The notes beneath the pieces were generated by a model. The model was not told the origin of the DNA. It was given only the letters and a program-made list of their open reading frames with translations, and ran no database searches. From NCBI RefSeq assembly GCF_054482595.1, contig NZ_CM137008.1: DNA of 64,000 nt. One strand, given 5' to 3'. Within the stretch, counting starts at the first letter, position 1. Each line of letters opens with the position of its first letter. The translations under genes and the position numbers were made by a program. Positions 59,338 through 63,950 of the stretch are shown here, one piece after another.

Positions 59338-60294
59338 TTAAACCACCCGATCCAGCCCCAACATGCCGCGAGCCTGAATGAAACAGAGCAGCAACGTTCC
59401 CCATAAGGCCATCGTCAGGTAGGGGCTTATACCGAGAATATTGAAGCCGCTTTCAATAATTTGCAGAAGAAACAGCGCCAGCACCATACCAATTATCCGC
59501 CCGCTGCCGCCGTCCGGATTAACCCCGCCGAGTACTGCCGCGAGGATTGACACCAGCAAGTACGATTCGCCATAAGAGGCCTTAGCCGAGTTGAGTTTCG
59601 ACATCATCAAAAATGCCGCTACCGCACAAAGCAAGGCGGAAATGACATAAACCCAAATCAGCACCCGACGAGTGTTAATGCCGGAGTAAAGTGTTGCTCG
59701 TTCGTTAGACCCAATCAGGTAAATGGCTTTACCGAGCGGCGTTTTCTCCAGCAATATCCACAGCCCCAGTGCCACTGCGGCAAACAACCACATCGGTAGC
59801 GGAATACCGAACCATTGCGCATGATTCAACCACAGCACCCATGAGGGATAATTGGCAATGGCGCTACCACCTGTCACCAGAATATTTATCCCTTTGAGCA
59901 ACGTCATCATCCCAAGCGTTGCAAGAATTGGCGACACTCGAATACCAGCAATCAATACGCCGTTACATAAACCGATTATCACCGCCGCGCCAGCGCCCGC
60001 CAGTAACGTAGCGACAACCGTAGCAATACCCGGTGGATACTGAGTCGCCACCCACGCCATCACCAGTGAACAGGCGTTAGCAGTGGCTATAATTGACAAG
60101 TTAATGCCACCGCAAAGCATGGTCACCGCCATAGCCAACGCCAGAATGCCCAGCACGGGCATTTGCGAAGCGACGGACTGGAAATTACTTATCGACCAGA
60201 AAATCTCCGGCATAGTAATGCTGAACGCGGCAACAGTTAGCACCAGCAGGCCGATCAAGTAAAACTCAACGTTATTACGCCACGATTTTTTCAT
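59338..60294 (-). CDS. Sugar ABC transporter permease (CUT2 / ribose-type), second of two
   Basis: 318 aa from MKKSWRNNVEFYLIGLL; start overlaps the upstream permease stop (ATGA). Confidence 0.8.
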   Translation of the reverse strand: MKKSWRNNVEFYLIGLLVLTVAAFSITMPEIFWSISNFQSVASQMPVLGILALAMAVTMLCGGINLSIIATANACSLVMAWVATQYPPGIATVVATLLAGAGAAVIIGLCNGVLIAGIRVSPILATLGMMTLLKGINILVTGGSAIANYPSWVLWLNHAQWFGIPLPMWLFAAVALGLWILLEKTPLGKAIYLIGSNERATLYSGINTRRVLIWVYVISALLCAVAAFLMMSKLNSAKASYGESYLLVSILAAVLGGVNPDGGSGRIIGMVLALFLLQIIESGFNILGISPYLTMALWGTLLLCFIQARGMLGLDRVV

Positions 60295-61262
60295 AGCAGA
60301 CTCCGGTTCTGATGCTGACTCCACGCCGTGGCACTAATGCTGGCAACGATGATGATGCCGGTGATCAATGTTTGCCAGTAAGACGAGACTCCCAATAAAT
60401 TTAGCCCGTTTTGCATCACTGCCAACAACACCACGCCGAGCAAAGTACCGGTTAACGTGCCGCGCCCGCCGAGCAAACTAGTGCCGCCAAGCACCACCGC
60501 AGCCAGTACTGTCAGCTCATAACCCAGAAGAGAATCGGGGGCGACAGTCATCACCGTCCACGACTGCACTACACCCGCAGCGCCAGACATCAATCCCATA
60601 TAGCCATAGACGAAAAGTTGCAGTTTCAGCACGCTAAAGCCGATGCGACTGGCTGATTCGCGGTTCCCGCCAAGGGCATAAATTTTGCGCCCTACACTGG
60701 TGAAATTCATGATAAACGCTGTTAGCAGCACCACCGTAATCATGGCGATCAGCGGCAGACCAAGGCCATAGTCATAGCCATCAGCATCGGTGTACTTGAA
60801 CAACATAACCCCCTGCTCAAACCACGGCGGAAAGTCGTACAGCCACACACCTTTACTCAACCATAACAGCAGGCCATAGAAAATATTCAGCGTCGAGATA
60901 GTGATGATGATAGAAGGCACCCGTAGGCGATTAACCAGTAAGGCGTTAATTAAGCCAAGTAAAATGCCGATGCAGCCCGCCAGTGCAAACGCGACAGCGA
61001 AGTTGCCACCAATTTTTTGCAGCAACAGCACCATGCCGTATTGCGCCATGATGGTCATTGCTGGAAACGAAATATCAATTCCACCGGAAATCAACACCAC
61101 AAACAAACCACAGGCGAGAATAGTCAACATGGCATAGTTATTGGCGAGATCGTACAAATTACCGAATGTCAGAAACTCGTCGCTGCGCCAGGCAAGGCCA
61201 ACAAACAGCACCACAATCAGTAATGCCAGCCAGAATTCATGGCGTTTTTTCAGTTCAGCCAT
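60291..61262 (-). CDS. Sugar ABC transporter permease (CUT2 / ribose-type), first of two
   Basis: 323-aa polytopic ORF; overlaps the ATPase 3' end by 8 nt. Confidence 0.8.
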   Translation of the reverse strand: MAELKKRHEFWLALLIVVLFVGLAWRSDEFLTFGNLYDLANNYAMLTILACGLFVVLISGGIDISFPAMTIMAQYGMVLLLQKIGGNFAVAFALAGCIGILLGLINALLVNRLRVPSIIITISTLNIFYGLLLWLSKGVWLYDFPPWFEQGVMLFKYTDADGYDYGLGLPLIAMITVVLLTAFIMNFTSVGRKIYALGGNRESASRIGFSVLKLQLFVYGYMGLMSGAAGVVQSWTVMTVAPDSLLGYELTVLAAVVLGGTSLLGGRGTLTGTLLGVVLLAVMQNGLNLLGVSSYWQTLITGIIIVASISATAWSQHQNRSLL

Positions 61263-62739
61263 TTACCACCTCCGCAATCCTGGCCTGAGAACTGCTGTCA
61301 GGCAGGAAGCTATGGGTGATCTGTCCTTTTTGCATTACCAAAATCCGGTGGCTTTGATACCACGCTTCTTCAATTTCATCGCAGATCATCAATACCGCAA
61401 TGCCATGAGCCGCCAGATCGCTGATAATGCCGTATATTCCTGCTTTGTTGGCGATATCAACACCGACTGTCGGGCTATCGAGAATCAACAGTCGTGGCCC
61501 AATCGCCAGCCATTTGGCGATCGATACTCGCTGCGCGTTACCACCAGAAAGCGTATTCACCGGGAGATGAGGATCAGAGACTTTGATGGTCAATGCCTTG
61601 ATTAGCCTGTCCACCAGGTCACGCACTTTAGTTTCACTCAGAAAGCCGAAGCGATCTTTTACCTTGTGAAAAACAGTGCTAATGATGTTGTCTTCAATAG
61701 ATTGCGCCATCACCAAACCGCGCGACATGCGATCTTCCGAAACATAACCAATACCGTGGCGGATGGCGTCCTGGTTACTATGCAGTGTAACCAGCTGGCC
61801 GTTGATGAGGATCTCGCCAGAATCCGGTCGGGTCATACCAAACAGACTCAGACATAATTCCGTGCGCCCCGCACCAAGCAGGCCAACAATCGATACCACT
61901 TCGCCCGCTTCCACCCGCAAGTTAATATTTAGATATTCCCCATGACGACTTAAATTACGCACCTCCAGCACCGGGGTGCTGGATTTTCCCTGCCACAACT
62001 CTCGCACCTGATATTCAAACTCCTGGCCGGTCATCAGGAAACCGAGTTGTTTTGTGGTCATCTCTGCAGCCGGAAAAGTCCCGACCAGCTCACCATCTTT
62101 CAGCACTGAAATACGGTCGGAAACTTCCATCACTTCTTCCAGACGATGACTGACGAAGACCACGCAGATCCCGCGTTCCCGCAATTGATGCACCACCTGT
62201 AATAACCCTTGCACTTCCTGATGGGTCAGCGAAGCGGTTGGTTCATCCATCACGATCAACCGTGCGTCCTGCGCCAGTGCACGGCAAATTGCCACCAGCT
62301 GACAGCGGGCAATTGAAAGCTCAGAAACGAGCGTATCCAGTGGCAATGTGACGTTAATACTGGTCATTGCCGCCTGCGCCACCTCACGCAGACGACGTCG
62401 GTTAACAAACAGACCGTGGTGATAGTGATTCACGGCGATATTCTCCCAGACACTCAGGTTAGGAAATAAAGAGAGGTCCTGATAAATCACCTGAATCCCC
62501 TGCGCCACCGAAGCGGCGGGTGTCAGCTTTGACCATTTTTTCCCACCAAGCGTAATTTCCGCTCCCTCATCCGGGCGATAAACACCGGACATAATTTTGA
62601 TCAACGTCGATTTACCACAGCCGTTTTGCCCGGCAAGGCAGTGCACTTCACCCGACATAAAGTCGAGAGAAACATCGCGCAGCGCTCGCGTGGCATGAAA
62701 CGTTTTGTTGATATGACGAAGGGAAAGGAAGGTTTCCAT
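61255..62739 (-). CDS. Sugar ABC transporter ATP-binding protein (two fused ABC domains)
   Basis: 494 aa from METFLSLRHINKTF with AGGGGA RBS; Walker A GQNGCGKST in domain 1 and a second ABC domain. Confidence 0.85.
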   Translation of the reverse strand: METFLSLRHINKTFHATRALRDVSLDFMSGEVHCLAGQNGCGKSTLIKIMSGVYRPDEGAEITLGGKKWSKLTPAASVAQGIQVIYQDLSLFPNLSVWENIAVNHYHHGLFVNRRRLREVAQAAMTSINVTLPLDTLVSELSIARCQLVAICRALAQDARLIVMDEPTASLTHQEVQGLLQVVHQLRERGICVVFVSHRLEEVMEVSDRISVLKDGELVGTFPAAEMTTKQLGFLMTGQEFEYQVRELWQGKSSTPVLEVRNLSRHGEYLNINLRVEAGEVVSIVGLLGAGRTELCLSLFGMTRPDSGEILINGQLVTLHSNQDAIRHGIGYVSEDRMSRGLVMAQSIEDNIISTVFHKVKDRFGFLSETKVRDLVDRLIKALTIKVSDPHLPVNTLSGGNAQRVSIAKWLAIGPRLLILDSPTVGVDIANKAGIYGIISDLAAHGIAVLMICDEIEEAWYQSHRILVMQKGQITHSFLPDSSSQARIAEVVNG

Positions 62740-63774: not shown

Positions 63775-63934
63775 TTCAGCCTCATTGCAGGGTAGTCAGG
63801 AAGTGTTCGCCCAAATTAGCGCGCTGGAGAGAATAAGAATTTTCGAATATTTTTATGCAGAATAAACAGCCCTATTTCAGGCAGCTATTAAAAATATGGT
63901 TATAAATATGGACAAAACGGGCAGCAACAATAAG

Positions 63935-63950
63935 TGTGACATTCATCACG
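63935..63950. promoter_or_regulatory. Candidate CRP site upstream of the ABC operon
   Basis: TGTGA-CATTCA-TCACG, about 160 bp upstream of the binding-protein start, in an AT-rich leader. Confidence 0.45.

What the first reader, a model, noticed from the sequence alone, without database searches (positions are those of the whole stretch)
59338..63950. LsrB/RbsB-like sugar ABC transporter operon beyond yahK, with an intra-operon hairpin and a candidate CRP site
Four minus-strand genes (binding protein, double-domain ATPase, two permeases) with overlapping junctions sit where I recall K-12 having yahJ, yahI and neighbours. The binding protein's C-terminus resembles LsrB-type proteins, but the gene order (binding protein first) differs from lsrACDB, so the substrate is open. 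A GAAA-tetraloop hairpin after the binding-protein gene is the kind of element that gives higher binding-protein mRNA levels in other ABC operons. A near-consensus CRP half-site pair lies upstream. The operon's regulator and upstream context are outside the window.
Basis: partly seen in the sequence, partly recalled or inferred. Interest (0 to 1): 0.45.

Follow-up and report, generated by a model that had tools for sequence, protein, structure and literature searches.

The report
Known aauABCD sugar-uptake operon of E. coli
This is the already published Aau ABC transporter of E. coli, which takes up D-ribulose (and weakly L-arabinose) and is switched on by AraC; the new details here are its araBAD-like promoter, a conserved hairpin after the first gene, and evidence that K-12 lost the operon by deletion.

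Summary
Four co-oriented minus-strand genes lie between yahK and the window end: binding protein, fused double ATPase and two permeases, with 8-nt and 4-nt overlaps.

The operon is not new. The binding protein differs by one residue from PDB 9I1M, AauA. This is the Aau system (Z0415-Z0419, O-island 17) described by Cottam et al. in 2024 and 2025. AauA binds D-ribulose at about 2 uM and L-arabinose at about 600 uM. Expression needs AraC and L-arabinose, and AraB phosphorylates the imported D-ribulose.

The LsrB resemblance is only at family level: 28% identity and 1 of 6 AI-2-contact residues kept.

The hairpin and the CRP site both hold up under comparison:
- A stem-loop follows the binding-protein gene in nearly all 79 homologous loci, with compensatory changes.
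- The CRP site sits 27 nt upstream of two AraC half-sites, in a layout that closely follows the araBAD promoter P_BAD. This layout is conserved in 50 of 60 Aau-type loci across many genera.

K-12 carries a deletion scar that keeps the last 72 nt of aauD. Among 5426 complete E. coli genomes, 2212 have the operon and 2804 have the scar.

Verdict: already known, low interest. The promoter sites, the hairpin and the deletion are not mentioned in the main text of either paper.

The parts
62788..63774 (-). aauA, periplasmic sugar-binding protein. The ORF is 328 aa from the first ATG; RefSeq starts at 63771.
   Evidence: One search gives the ORF. Peripla_BP_4, E = 4.5e-63; 713 bits to PDB 9I1M with one substitution (D201 here, V201 in the crystal). 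K37, W43, E118, H167, E196 and S223, the D-ribulose contacts listed in PMC12307932, are all present.
62761..62778 (-). Stem-loop between aauA and aauB: 7 bp (6 G-C pairs), GAAA loop, followed by UUCUUAUU.
   Evidence: Searches identify it. It is unique in the window and matches no Rfam family. An equivalent stem-loop with unrelated sequence follows the binding-protein gene in nearly all 79 homologous loci. Compensatory changes are seen.
61255..62739 (-). aauB, fused double-domain ABC ATPase of 494 aa. GGGGA lies 6 nt before the ATG.
   Evidence: two ABC_tran stretches; RefSeq coordinates; it scores 345-420 bits against nine different sugar ATPase equivalog models, all below their cut-offs.
60291..61262 (-). 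aauC, permease. Its start overlaps the aauB stop by 8 nt.
   Evidence: (BPD_transp_2).
59338..60294 (-). aauD, permease. ATGA overlap with aauC. Its last 72 nt (59338-59409) survive in K-12.
63935..63950 (.). CRP-type site. On the operon strand it reads CGTGATGAATGTCACA, 9 of 10 half-site bases.
   Evidence: It keeps a fixed 27/28-nt offset from the AraC half-site in orthologous promoters of many genera.
63907..63923 (-). AraC I1-like half-site, TGCCCGTTTTGTCCATA.
   Evidence: 2 mismatches to TAGC-N7-TCCATA. Searches show it conserved. One search gives P_BAD for comparison.
63886..63902 (-). AraC I2-like half-site, TAACCATATTTTTAATA, 21 nt centre-to-centre from I1. It would overlap the -35 region.
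63859..63864 (-). Predicted -10 hexamer TATTCT, 21 nt after I2. The transcription start is inferred near 63852.
   Evidence: a TAYTNT-like hexamer sits 20-21 nt after I2 in E. coli, Klebsiella, Franconibacter, Leclercia, Silvania and P_BAD. This is inference by analogy; the start site was not mapped.
59252..59409 (.). Segment shared with K-12: the yahK-aauD spacer plus the aauD 3' remnant. The K-12 deletion breakpoint lies at 59409/59410.

Best explanation
The locus is aauABCD, the published 'accessory L-arabinose uptake' ABC importer of E. coli (O-island 17, Z0415-Z0419 in EDL933).

Shown elsewhere (the two Cottam et al. papers):
- Periplasmic AauA captures alpha-D-ribulofuranose with a Kd of about 2 uM, and L-arabinose with a Kd of about 0.6 mM.
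- AauA delivers the sugar to the AauCD permease pair, powered by the fused ATPase AauB.
- Transcription requires AraC and L-arabinose.
- Imported D-ribulose is phosphorylated by AraB and enters the pentose phosphate pathway.

Inferred here from sequence and comparison:
1. The promoter follows the layout of the araBAD promoter P_BAD. A CRP site lies 27 nt upstream of two direct-repeat AraC half-sites (I1 and I2, 21 nt apart). I2 abuts a poor -35, and a TATTCT -10 lies 21 nt further on. This would make AraC activation direct and cAMP-CRP-dependent.
2. The stem-loop just after aauA acts as a leaky terminator and/or a 3'-exonuclease barrier. Either way, binding-protein message would exceed message for the membrane components.
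3. The operon-less state in K-12 is a derived deletion, not the ancestral state.
For: Identity:
- AauA matches PDB 9I1M over 328 of 328 residues with one substitution.
- 9I1M is AauA according to PMC12307932.
- All six ligand-contact residues are present.
- The four-gene architecture matches the published Z0415-9 description.
- A STEC genome has the same yahK/ASCH/yahJ context.

Regulation:
- AraC dependence is published.
- The CRP-I1-I2 module with fixed spacing lies upstream of the binding-protein gene in 50 of 60 Aau-type loci, from Escherichia to Pasteurellaceae.
- It is found in 0 of 20 Rbl-type loci, and only 7 times elsewhere in 1.93 Mb of strand-bases.
- Its spacing parallels K-12 P_BAD: 27/4/21 nt against 29/4/20 nt.
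- araC itself, or araB and araA, sits next to the orthologous operon in Pasteurellaceae, Providencia and the Budvicia/Limnobaculum/Leminorella group.

Hairpin:
- In 49 of 79 loci the stem beats at least 99% of shuffles, and in 63 of 79 it beats at least 95%. There are 72 distinct hairpin sequences.
- Pairs are kept through double changes in 4 of 12 pairs (Yersinia) and 4 of 7 pairs (across genera).

Deletion:
- K-12 keeps three collinear remnants: the aauD 3' end, the ASCH-gene 3' end and the yahJ-proximal spacer.
- 2804 genomes carry this scar and 2212 carry the operon.
- GC content is 50-52%, with no compositional anomaly.
Against: - No binding, transcription start or transcript-end data exist for this promoter or hairpin in anything I could read.
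- The E. coli half-sites are weak. I1 has 2 mismatches and I2 has 3 mismatches to TAGC-N7-TCCATA, and such matches are common by chance in the window (29 found, 42 expected at 2 mismatches or fewer).
- The E. coli hairpin alone is not significant.
- Only 19 of 79 homologous hairpins have a T-rich tail, so a terminator role is not general.
- AraC dependence could still be indirect in principle.
- Other Escherichia species do not appear among the 80 best loci. The E. coli ancestor may therefore still have acquired the operon horizontally before some lineages lost it.
Confidence: 0.88

Rival explanations
1. It is an autoinducer-2 (LsrB-type) uptake system, as the RefSeq product name for the binding protein suggests and as the first reader half-proposed.
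For: RefSeq calls the protein 'autoinducer 2 ABC transporter substrate-binding protein'. LsrB is among the better NCBIfam and PDB matches.
Against: - The NCBIfam LsrB score is 111 bits against a cut-off of 384.
- Identity to E. coli LsrB is 28%.
- Only K35 of the six AI-2 contacts (K35, D116, D166, Q167, P220, A222) is kept.
- No lsrK, lsrR, lsrF or lsrG lies nearby.
- The crystal structure has D-ribulose bound.
Confidence: 0.02
2. The family's primary physiological job is tied to L-arabinose, for example uptake of the minor furanose form or general ara-regulon scavenging. On this view D-ribulose is a secondary or lineage-specific use, and AraC control is ancestral rather than a later 'hijack'.
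For: - The P_BAD-type CRP/AraC module is conserved upstream of orthologues in many genera.
- araC, araB and araA are adjacent in Providencia and in the Budvicia/Limnobaculum/Leminorella group. In Actinobacillus seminis the order is araC, the operon, a kinase, then araA.
- Induction is by L-arabinose only, not by D-ribulose.
Against: - Published affinity is more than 200-fold better for D-ribulose, with clear density for it in the crystal.
- All six D-ribulose contacts are also kept in the kinase-linked Rbl-type proteins.
- Most Pasteurellaceae loci have only araC, the transporter and an FGGY kinase, without araA or araD. That gene set would suit a ketopentose just as well.
Confidence: 0.3
3. 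The hairpin has no selected function, or is only a mobile palindrome such as a REP element.
For: In E. coli alone the fold is not better than shuffles (z = -1.3; 9-12 of 200 shuffles).
Against: - The sequence is unique in the 64-kb window.
- A stem-loop is retained at the same place, 8-20 nt after the stop codon, in most homologous loci.
- The stems are unrelated in sequence and carry compensatory substitutions.
Confidence: 0.1
4. The operon is a recent horizontally acquired island inserted into an ancestrally empty yahK-yahJ spacer, which is the 'O-island' view.
For: - The literature describes it as horizontally acquired, on OI-17.
- It is absent from K-12 and from about half of E. coli genomes.
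- Other Escherichia species do not appear among the best 80 loci.
Against: - The 'empty' allele contains collinear remnants of aauD and of the ASCH gene, so it descends from an occupied site.
- GC content is ordinary.
- No integrase, tRNA or direct repeats flank it (annotation).
Confidence: 0.15

Closest known systems
AauABCD (Z0415-Z0419, O-island 17) of enterohaemorrhagic E. coli; AauA structure PDB 9I1M (Cottam et al., Nat Commun 2024, PMC11127945; 2025, PMC12307932)
   Same: It is the same operon. The binding protein differs by one residue. The four-gene order is the same, as is the chromosomal site next to yahK. All six D-ribulose-contact residues are kept.
   Different: The host strain matches a human urine isolate (XH990, 100% identity over the 4.7-kb query) rather than EHEC. 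AauA has D201 where the crystal has V201.
Rbl D-ribulose locus of Citrobacter rodentium type (ABC transporter plus RblK D-ribulokinase)
   Same: It has the same A-B-C-D gene order, a hairpin after the binding-protein gene, and the same six ligand-contact residues. Protein identity is 58-61%.
   Different: Rbl-type loci carry an FGGY pentulose kinase and a SIS-domain gene downstream, and they lack the CRP/AraC module (0 of 20 loci). The window operon has neither kinase nor SIS gene, and it does have the module.
araBAD promoter (P_BAD) of E. coli K-12
   Same: The order is the same: CRP site, AraC I1, AraC I2 overlapping the -35, then a weak -10. The spacings are almost the same, 27/4/21 nt against 29/4/20 nt.
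   Different: The half-sites are poorer matches in E. coli P_aau. No upstream O2-like site for repression looping was looked for. Nothing here has been tested biochemically.
LsrACDB autoinducer-2 transporter
   Same: It belongs to the same CUT2 ABC superfamily and has the same binding-protein fold family (Peripla_BP_4).
   Different: Binding-protein identity is 28% and only 1 of 6 AI-2 contacts is kept. The gene order differs, and there are no lsrK, lsrR, lsrF or lsrG genes.
Intercistronic stem-loops in binding-protein-dependent operons, such as malE-malF and hisJ-hisQ (Newbury et al. 1987; recalled from memory)
   Same: A stable stem-loop lies directly after the binding-protein gene and ahead of the membrane-component genes.
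   Different: Those classic cases are REP repeats. This hairpin is a unique sequence with a U-rich tail, which makes it look more like a weak intrinsic terminator.

Membership tests
Aau (AauABCD) D-ribulose/L-arabinose ABC importer | Binding protein essentially identical to the crystallised AauA (PDB 9I1M) | tested here: met
   713 bits, 328 of 328 residues aligned, one substitution.
Aau (AauABCD) D-ribulose/L-arabinose ABC importer | D-ribulose-contact residues K37, W43, E118, H167, E196, S223 | tested here: met
   all six present. The residue list comes from PMC12307932.
Aau (AauABCD) D-ribulose/L-arabinose ABC importer | Four-gene operon: binding protein, fused ATPase, two permeases, with no cognate regulator or kinase | tested here: met
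.
Aau (AauABCD) D-ribulose/L-arabinose ABC importer | AraC- and L-arabinose-dependent transcription | not testable with these tools
   Published for EHEC. Here there is only sequence support, a P_BAD-like CRP/I1/I2 module.
CUT2 (carbohydrate uptake transporter-2) ABC importers | Peripla_BP_4 binding protein, an ATPase of about 500 aa with two ABC domains, and BPD_transp_2 permeases | tested here: met
LsrB-type AI-2 receptors | Six AI-2-contact residues K35, D116, D166, Q167, P220, A222. The numbering is recalled from Miller 2004 and Pereira 2009, and was checked against E. coli LsrB. | tested here: not met
   only K is kept. The others are E, Q, H, F and S.
LsrB-type AI-2 receptors | Reaches the NCBIfam LsrB equivalog cut-off | tested here: not met
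   111.4 bits against a cut-off of 384.
RhaS rhamnose-binding protein (TIGR02637) | Reaches the equivalog cut-off | tested here: not met
   136.7 bits against 342.25. This is the best NCBIfam hit, but it falls far short.
RbsB / AlsB / YtfQ-type binding proteins | Reaches the respective NCBIfam cut-off | tested here: not met
   RbsB scores 45.8 against 337 and AlsB scores 49.3 against 335. No YtfQ hit was listed.
Rbl-type D-ribulose locus | FGGY D-ribulokinase (RblK) and a SIS-domain gene directly downstream of the transporter | tested here: not met
   yahK follows aauD; the kinase and SIS gene occur only in the group with 58-61% identity.
P_BAD-type AraC/CRP-activated promoter | Two direct-repeat 17-bp AraC half-sites 21 bp apart, the proximal one abutting the -35, with a CRP site just upstream | tested here: met
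   Met by sequence geometry and cross-genus conservation only. Protein binding was not tested.
Intrinsic (Rho-independent) terminator | G+C-rich stem followed directly by a U tract | tested here: inconclusive
   the site passes a simple scan, with a 7-bp stem, 6 G-C pairs and the tail TTCTTATT. The stem is short and the U tract is interrupted. Only 19 of 79 homologues have a T-rich tail.

The most novel reading that the evidence does not exclude
The Aau-type transporter is an old, direct member of the AraC/CRP regulon across Gammaproteobacteria, with a P_BAD-style promoter that travels with the operon. On this reading EHEC did not 'hijack' AraC for a foreign island. E. coli lineages such as K-12 and CFT073 instead lost, by deletion, an ara-regulon transporter that others kept. 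In Pasteurellaceae the araC-transporter-kinase unit may be a self-contained ketopentose or arabinose locus whose AraC-like regulator has an untested inducer.
Probability: 0.55. Interest if true: 0.35.

Novelty: already known. Interest (0 to 1): 0.15.

Why it matters
The operon's identity, substrate, regulator and role in the gut are already published, so the finding adds no new system.

The analysis does supply testable cis-level detail that the main text of the two papers does not mention:
- where AraC and CRP probably bind;
- a conserved hairpin that may set the ratio of binding protein to membrane components;
- evidence that the 'island' is a presence/deletion polymorphism. The empty allele is a scar found in about 52% of complete E. 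coli genomes, and the operon is intact in about 41%.

These points slightly reframe the published 'horizontally acquired system hijacks AraC' account. They also flag that the RefSeq product name, 'autoinducer 2 ABC transporter substrate-binding protein', is misleading.

Tried and rejected
- LsrB, RhaS, RbsB and AlsB membership: all fall far below the NCBIfam cut-offs, and the LsrB contact residues are not kept.
- Rfam scan of 59000-64000 at E up to 1: no match.
- REP or repeat origin of the hairpin: it is the only copy in the window, even allowing 3 mismatches.
- Compositional evidence for recent transfer: none, GC is 50-52%.
- A suspected N-terminal defect of aauB in a STEC strain, where the annotation is shorter: the DNA is identical across the junction, so this is only a different start-codon choice.
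- An adjacent regulator or kinase beyond the window: none, only an ASCH-domain gene and yahJ.
- The ASCH-domain gene: no NCBIfam hit, and not linked to the operon outside E. coli.
- A first hairpin-statistics script timed out. It was replaced by a faster perfect-stem scorer, which under-counts bulged stems that RNAfold found.
- Literature searches for the Klebsiella structure 3D02 and for an 'AraC regulon' study covering this transporter found nothing.
- The Pasteurellaceae FGGY kinase could not be assigned. Its best score is XylB at 99.7 bits against a cut-off of 380, and it has no PDB relative at E up to 1e-10.
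Full report
**What is there.** Window 59338-63774 holds four co-oriented minus-strand genes:
- a Peripla_BP_4 binding protein (62788-63771/63774);
- a 494-aa ATPase with two ABC domains (61255-62739);
- two BPD_transp_2 permeases (60291-61262 and 59338-60294).

RefSeq annotation of an identical genome, strain XH990, gives the same genes. The ATPase and first permease overlap by 8 nt, and the two permeases overlap by ATGA. 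The 48-nt spacer after the binding-protein gene contains UCGGGGC-GAAA-GCCCCGA followed by UUCUUAUU (62761-62778). TGTGACATTCATCACG lies at 63935-63950.

**What it is.** The binding protein matches PDB 9I1M over its whole length with one substitution. 9I1M is AauA of the 'accessory L-arabinose uptake' system of EHEC. This system is Z0415-Z0419 on O-island 17, described as a binding protein, an ATPase and two permeases (PMC11127945).

The published results are:
- The promoter responds only to L-arabinose. The response is abolished in an araC deletion mutant and restored by complementation.
- Mutants lacking aau are outcompeted in the streptomycin-treated mouse gut.
- AauA binds D-ribulose with a Kd of about 2 uM and L-arabinose with a Kd of about 598 uM.
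- The crystal shows alpha-D-ribulose held by K37, W43, E118, H167, E196 and S223.
- AraB supplies the kinase step (PMC12307932).

All six contact residues are present in the window protein. The operon sits between yahK and an ASCH-domain gene followed by yahJ, and a STEC genome has the same arrangement.

**Families considered and excluded.** NCBIfam places the binding protein nearest RhaS (137 bits against a cut-off of 342) and LsrB (111 against 384). RbsB and AlsB score about 46-49 bits.

The LsrB test used the six AI-2 contacts, K35, D116, D166, Q167, P220 and A222. I recalled this numbering from memory, and it was confirmed by those exact residues appearing at those positions in E. coli LsrB. 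AauA keeps only the lysine. The RefSeq product name 'autoinducer 2 ABC transporter substrate-binding protein' is therefore misleading.

The binding-protein-first order is not a peculiarity. A-B-C-D is the order in 77 of the 80 homologous loci fetched from other species; two contigs end early and one hit fell in an unrelated gene.

**Promoter.** Neither paper's main text mentions CRP, cAMP or an AraC binding site. Read on the operon strand, the upstream region is:
- CGTGATGAATGTCACA (CRP site);
- 11 nt;
- TGCCCGTTTTGTCCATA (AraC I1-like);
- TTTA;
- TAACCATATTTTTAATA (AraC I2-like);
- 21 nt;
- TATTCT.

K-12 P_BAD, read from a K-12 genome, has a CRP site, 13 nt, TAGCATTTTTATCCATA, AGAT, TAGCGGATCCTACCTGA, 20 nt, then TACTGT. 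The two layouts differ by one or two base pairs in spacing.

On the E. coli sequence alone the half-sites would not be convincing. Matches with 2 mismatches or fewer are as common as chance in the window. The module is, however, conserved. A CRP site plus an I1 site at an offset of 27 or 28 nt lies within 400 nt upstream of the binding-protein gene in 50 of 60 Aau-type loci (at least 65% protein identity). These loci include Klebsiella, Franconibacter, Mangrovibacter, Symbiopectobacterium, Atlantibacter, Leclercia, Silvania, Sodalis, Yersinia, Budvicia, Limnobaculum, Leminorella and many Pasteurellaceae. By contrast it occurs in 0 of 20 Rbl-type loci, and only 7 times anywhere else in 1.93 Mb of strand-bases.

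A -10-like hexamer sits 20-21 nt after I2 in most genera. In Pasteurellaceae araC lies immediately upstream of the operon (NCBIfam AraC, 372 bits against a cut-off of 208). In Providencia araC, araB and araA follow the operon. In Budvicia, Limnobaculum and Leminorella araB and araC precede it.

I infer that AraC activates P_aau directly, with CRP, from a P_BAD-type arrangement, and that this control is old rather than newly acquired in EHEC. The transcription start near 63852 is an inference by analogy only.

**Hairpin.** In E. coli alone the stem-loop is weak evidence. The z-score is -1.3, and 9-12 of 200 shuffles give as good a stem. It is unique in the window and matches no Rfam family.

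Across the 79 homologous loci with a usable spacer, a stem-loop follows the stop codon, typically 8-20 nt downstream. There are 72 different hairpin sequences. The stem beats at least 99% of shuffles in 49 loci and at least 95% in 63 loci. Several of the apparent failures have long bulged stems that RNAfold did find. Pairs are maintained through double substitutions in 4 of 12 pairs in Yersinia and in 4 of 7 pairs across genera.

Only 19 of 79 hairpins are followed by a T-rich tail. The general role is therefore more likely protection of the upstream message from 3' exonucleases than termination. The E. coli version, with its UUCUUAUU tail, could also terminate partially. Either mechanism would raise binding-protein message relative to the message for the membrane components. 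I recall this as the classical explanation for such elements in the mal and his operons. It remains an inference here.

**Absence from K-12.** K-12 shares only 158 nt of the 4.7-kb query. Of these, 72 nt are the 3' end of aauD, which RefSeq annotates there as a pseudogene fragment 'missing N-terminus'.

Short-word BLAST shows three collinear remnants in the K-12 yahK-yahJ spacer:
- the aauD end;
- 60 nt spanning the 3' end of the ASCH-domain gene;
- the yahJ-proximal spacer.

K-12 therefore descends from an operon-bearing allele through two deletions.

Among 5426 complete E. coli genomes, 2212 carry at least 80% of the operon query. 2804 carry the K-12-type scar, CFT073 among them. GC content is unremarkable at 50-52%. 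Other Escherichia species were not among the best 80 loci, so acquisition by the E. coli ancestor remains possible. The 'empty' site is nonetheless not ancestral.

**Verdict.** This is a correct observation of an operon that is already characterised. The substrate, the regulator and the in-vivo role are all published. The residual value lies in the predicted AraC and CRP operators, the conserved hairpin after the binding-protein gene, and the deletion-scar reading of the K-12 allele. All three are modest and testable.

Noticed in passing
window 57144-57959 (-): yahL is split into two ORFs (57144-57548 and 57579-57959). RefSeq marks it as a pseudogene with an internal stop in the identical strain XH990. 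It is intact in K-12 and in STEC strain 08-3918.
   Followed up: no
L002 9159-9293 (K-12 yahK-yahJ spacer); equivalent to just beyond the window end, 64015-64074: K-12 keeps a 60-nt remnant of the 3' end of the ASCH-domain gene, besides the aauD remnant, so there were two separate deletions. Another E. coli lineage (L031) has the operon but only a 3' remnant of the ASCH gene. The two indels are therefore independent.
   Followed up: partly
L004 (SFEK01000152.1): A 4.7-kb contig binned as a 'Bacteroidales bacterium' metagenome-assembled genome is 99-100% identical in protein to E. coli aauABCD. This is almost certainly a mis-binned E. coli contig.
   Followed up: no
L042 12346-13941 and equivalents in L047, L049, L051-L053, L055, L057-L061: In Pasteurellaceae the araC-aauABCD unit is followed by a 531-aa FGGY-like kinase. 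It reaches no NCBIfam cut-off (XylB 99.7 bits against 380) and has no PDB relative at E up to 1e-10. It is unrelated to AraB and RblK by BLASTP. In Actinobacillus seminis (L077) araA follows it.
   Followed up: partly
L028, L030, L034, L035, L037, L076, L079, L081, L083: spacer between binding-protein and ATPase genes: In some Yersinia, Budvicia, Pantoea and Serratia species this spacer is expanded to 200-330 nt by a highly structured insert. The insert contains a motif of the form ...GAGCTTAC...AAGTGATTCGGGTGAG..., which resembles ERIC/IRU repeats as I recall them. This was not verified.
   Followed up: no
window 59252-59337: The simple scan finds no terminator-like hairpin in the 86-nt spacer between aauD and yahK, which is on the same strand. 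Read-through from the operon into yahK cannot be excluded.
   Followed up: no
L048 (Vibrio sp. J1-1), about 120 nt upstream of the binding-protein gene: A perfect AraC half-site, TAGCCAATTTATCCATA, lies in the opposite orientation upstream of the Vibrio orthologue. No CRP site sits at the usual offset, which suggests a differently arranged promoter in Vibrio.
   Followed up: no
L003 1856-2875 (K-12 strain BZKR3G40): In the K-12 record used for comparison, araB and araA are missing, and the P_BAD leader is followed by an engineered-looking CTGCAGGTCGAC sequence. It is thus an ara-deleted laboratory derivative. P_BAD itself is intact.
   Followed up: no
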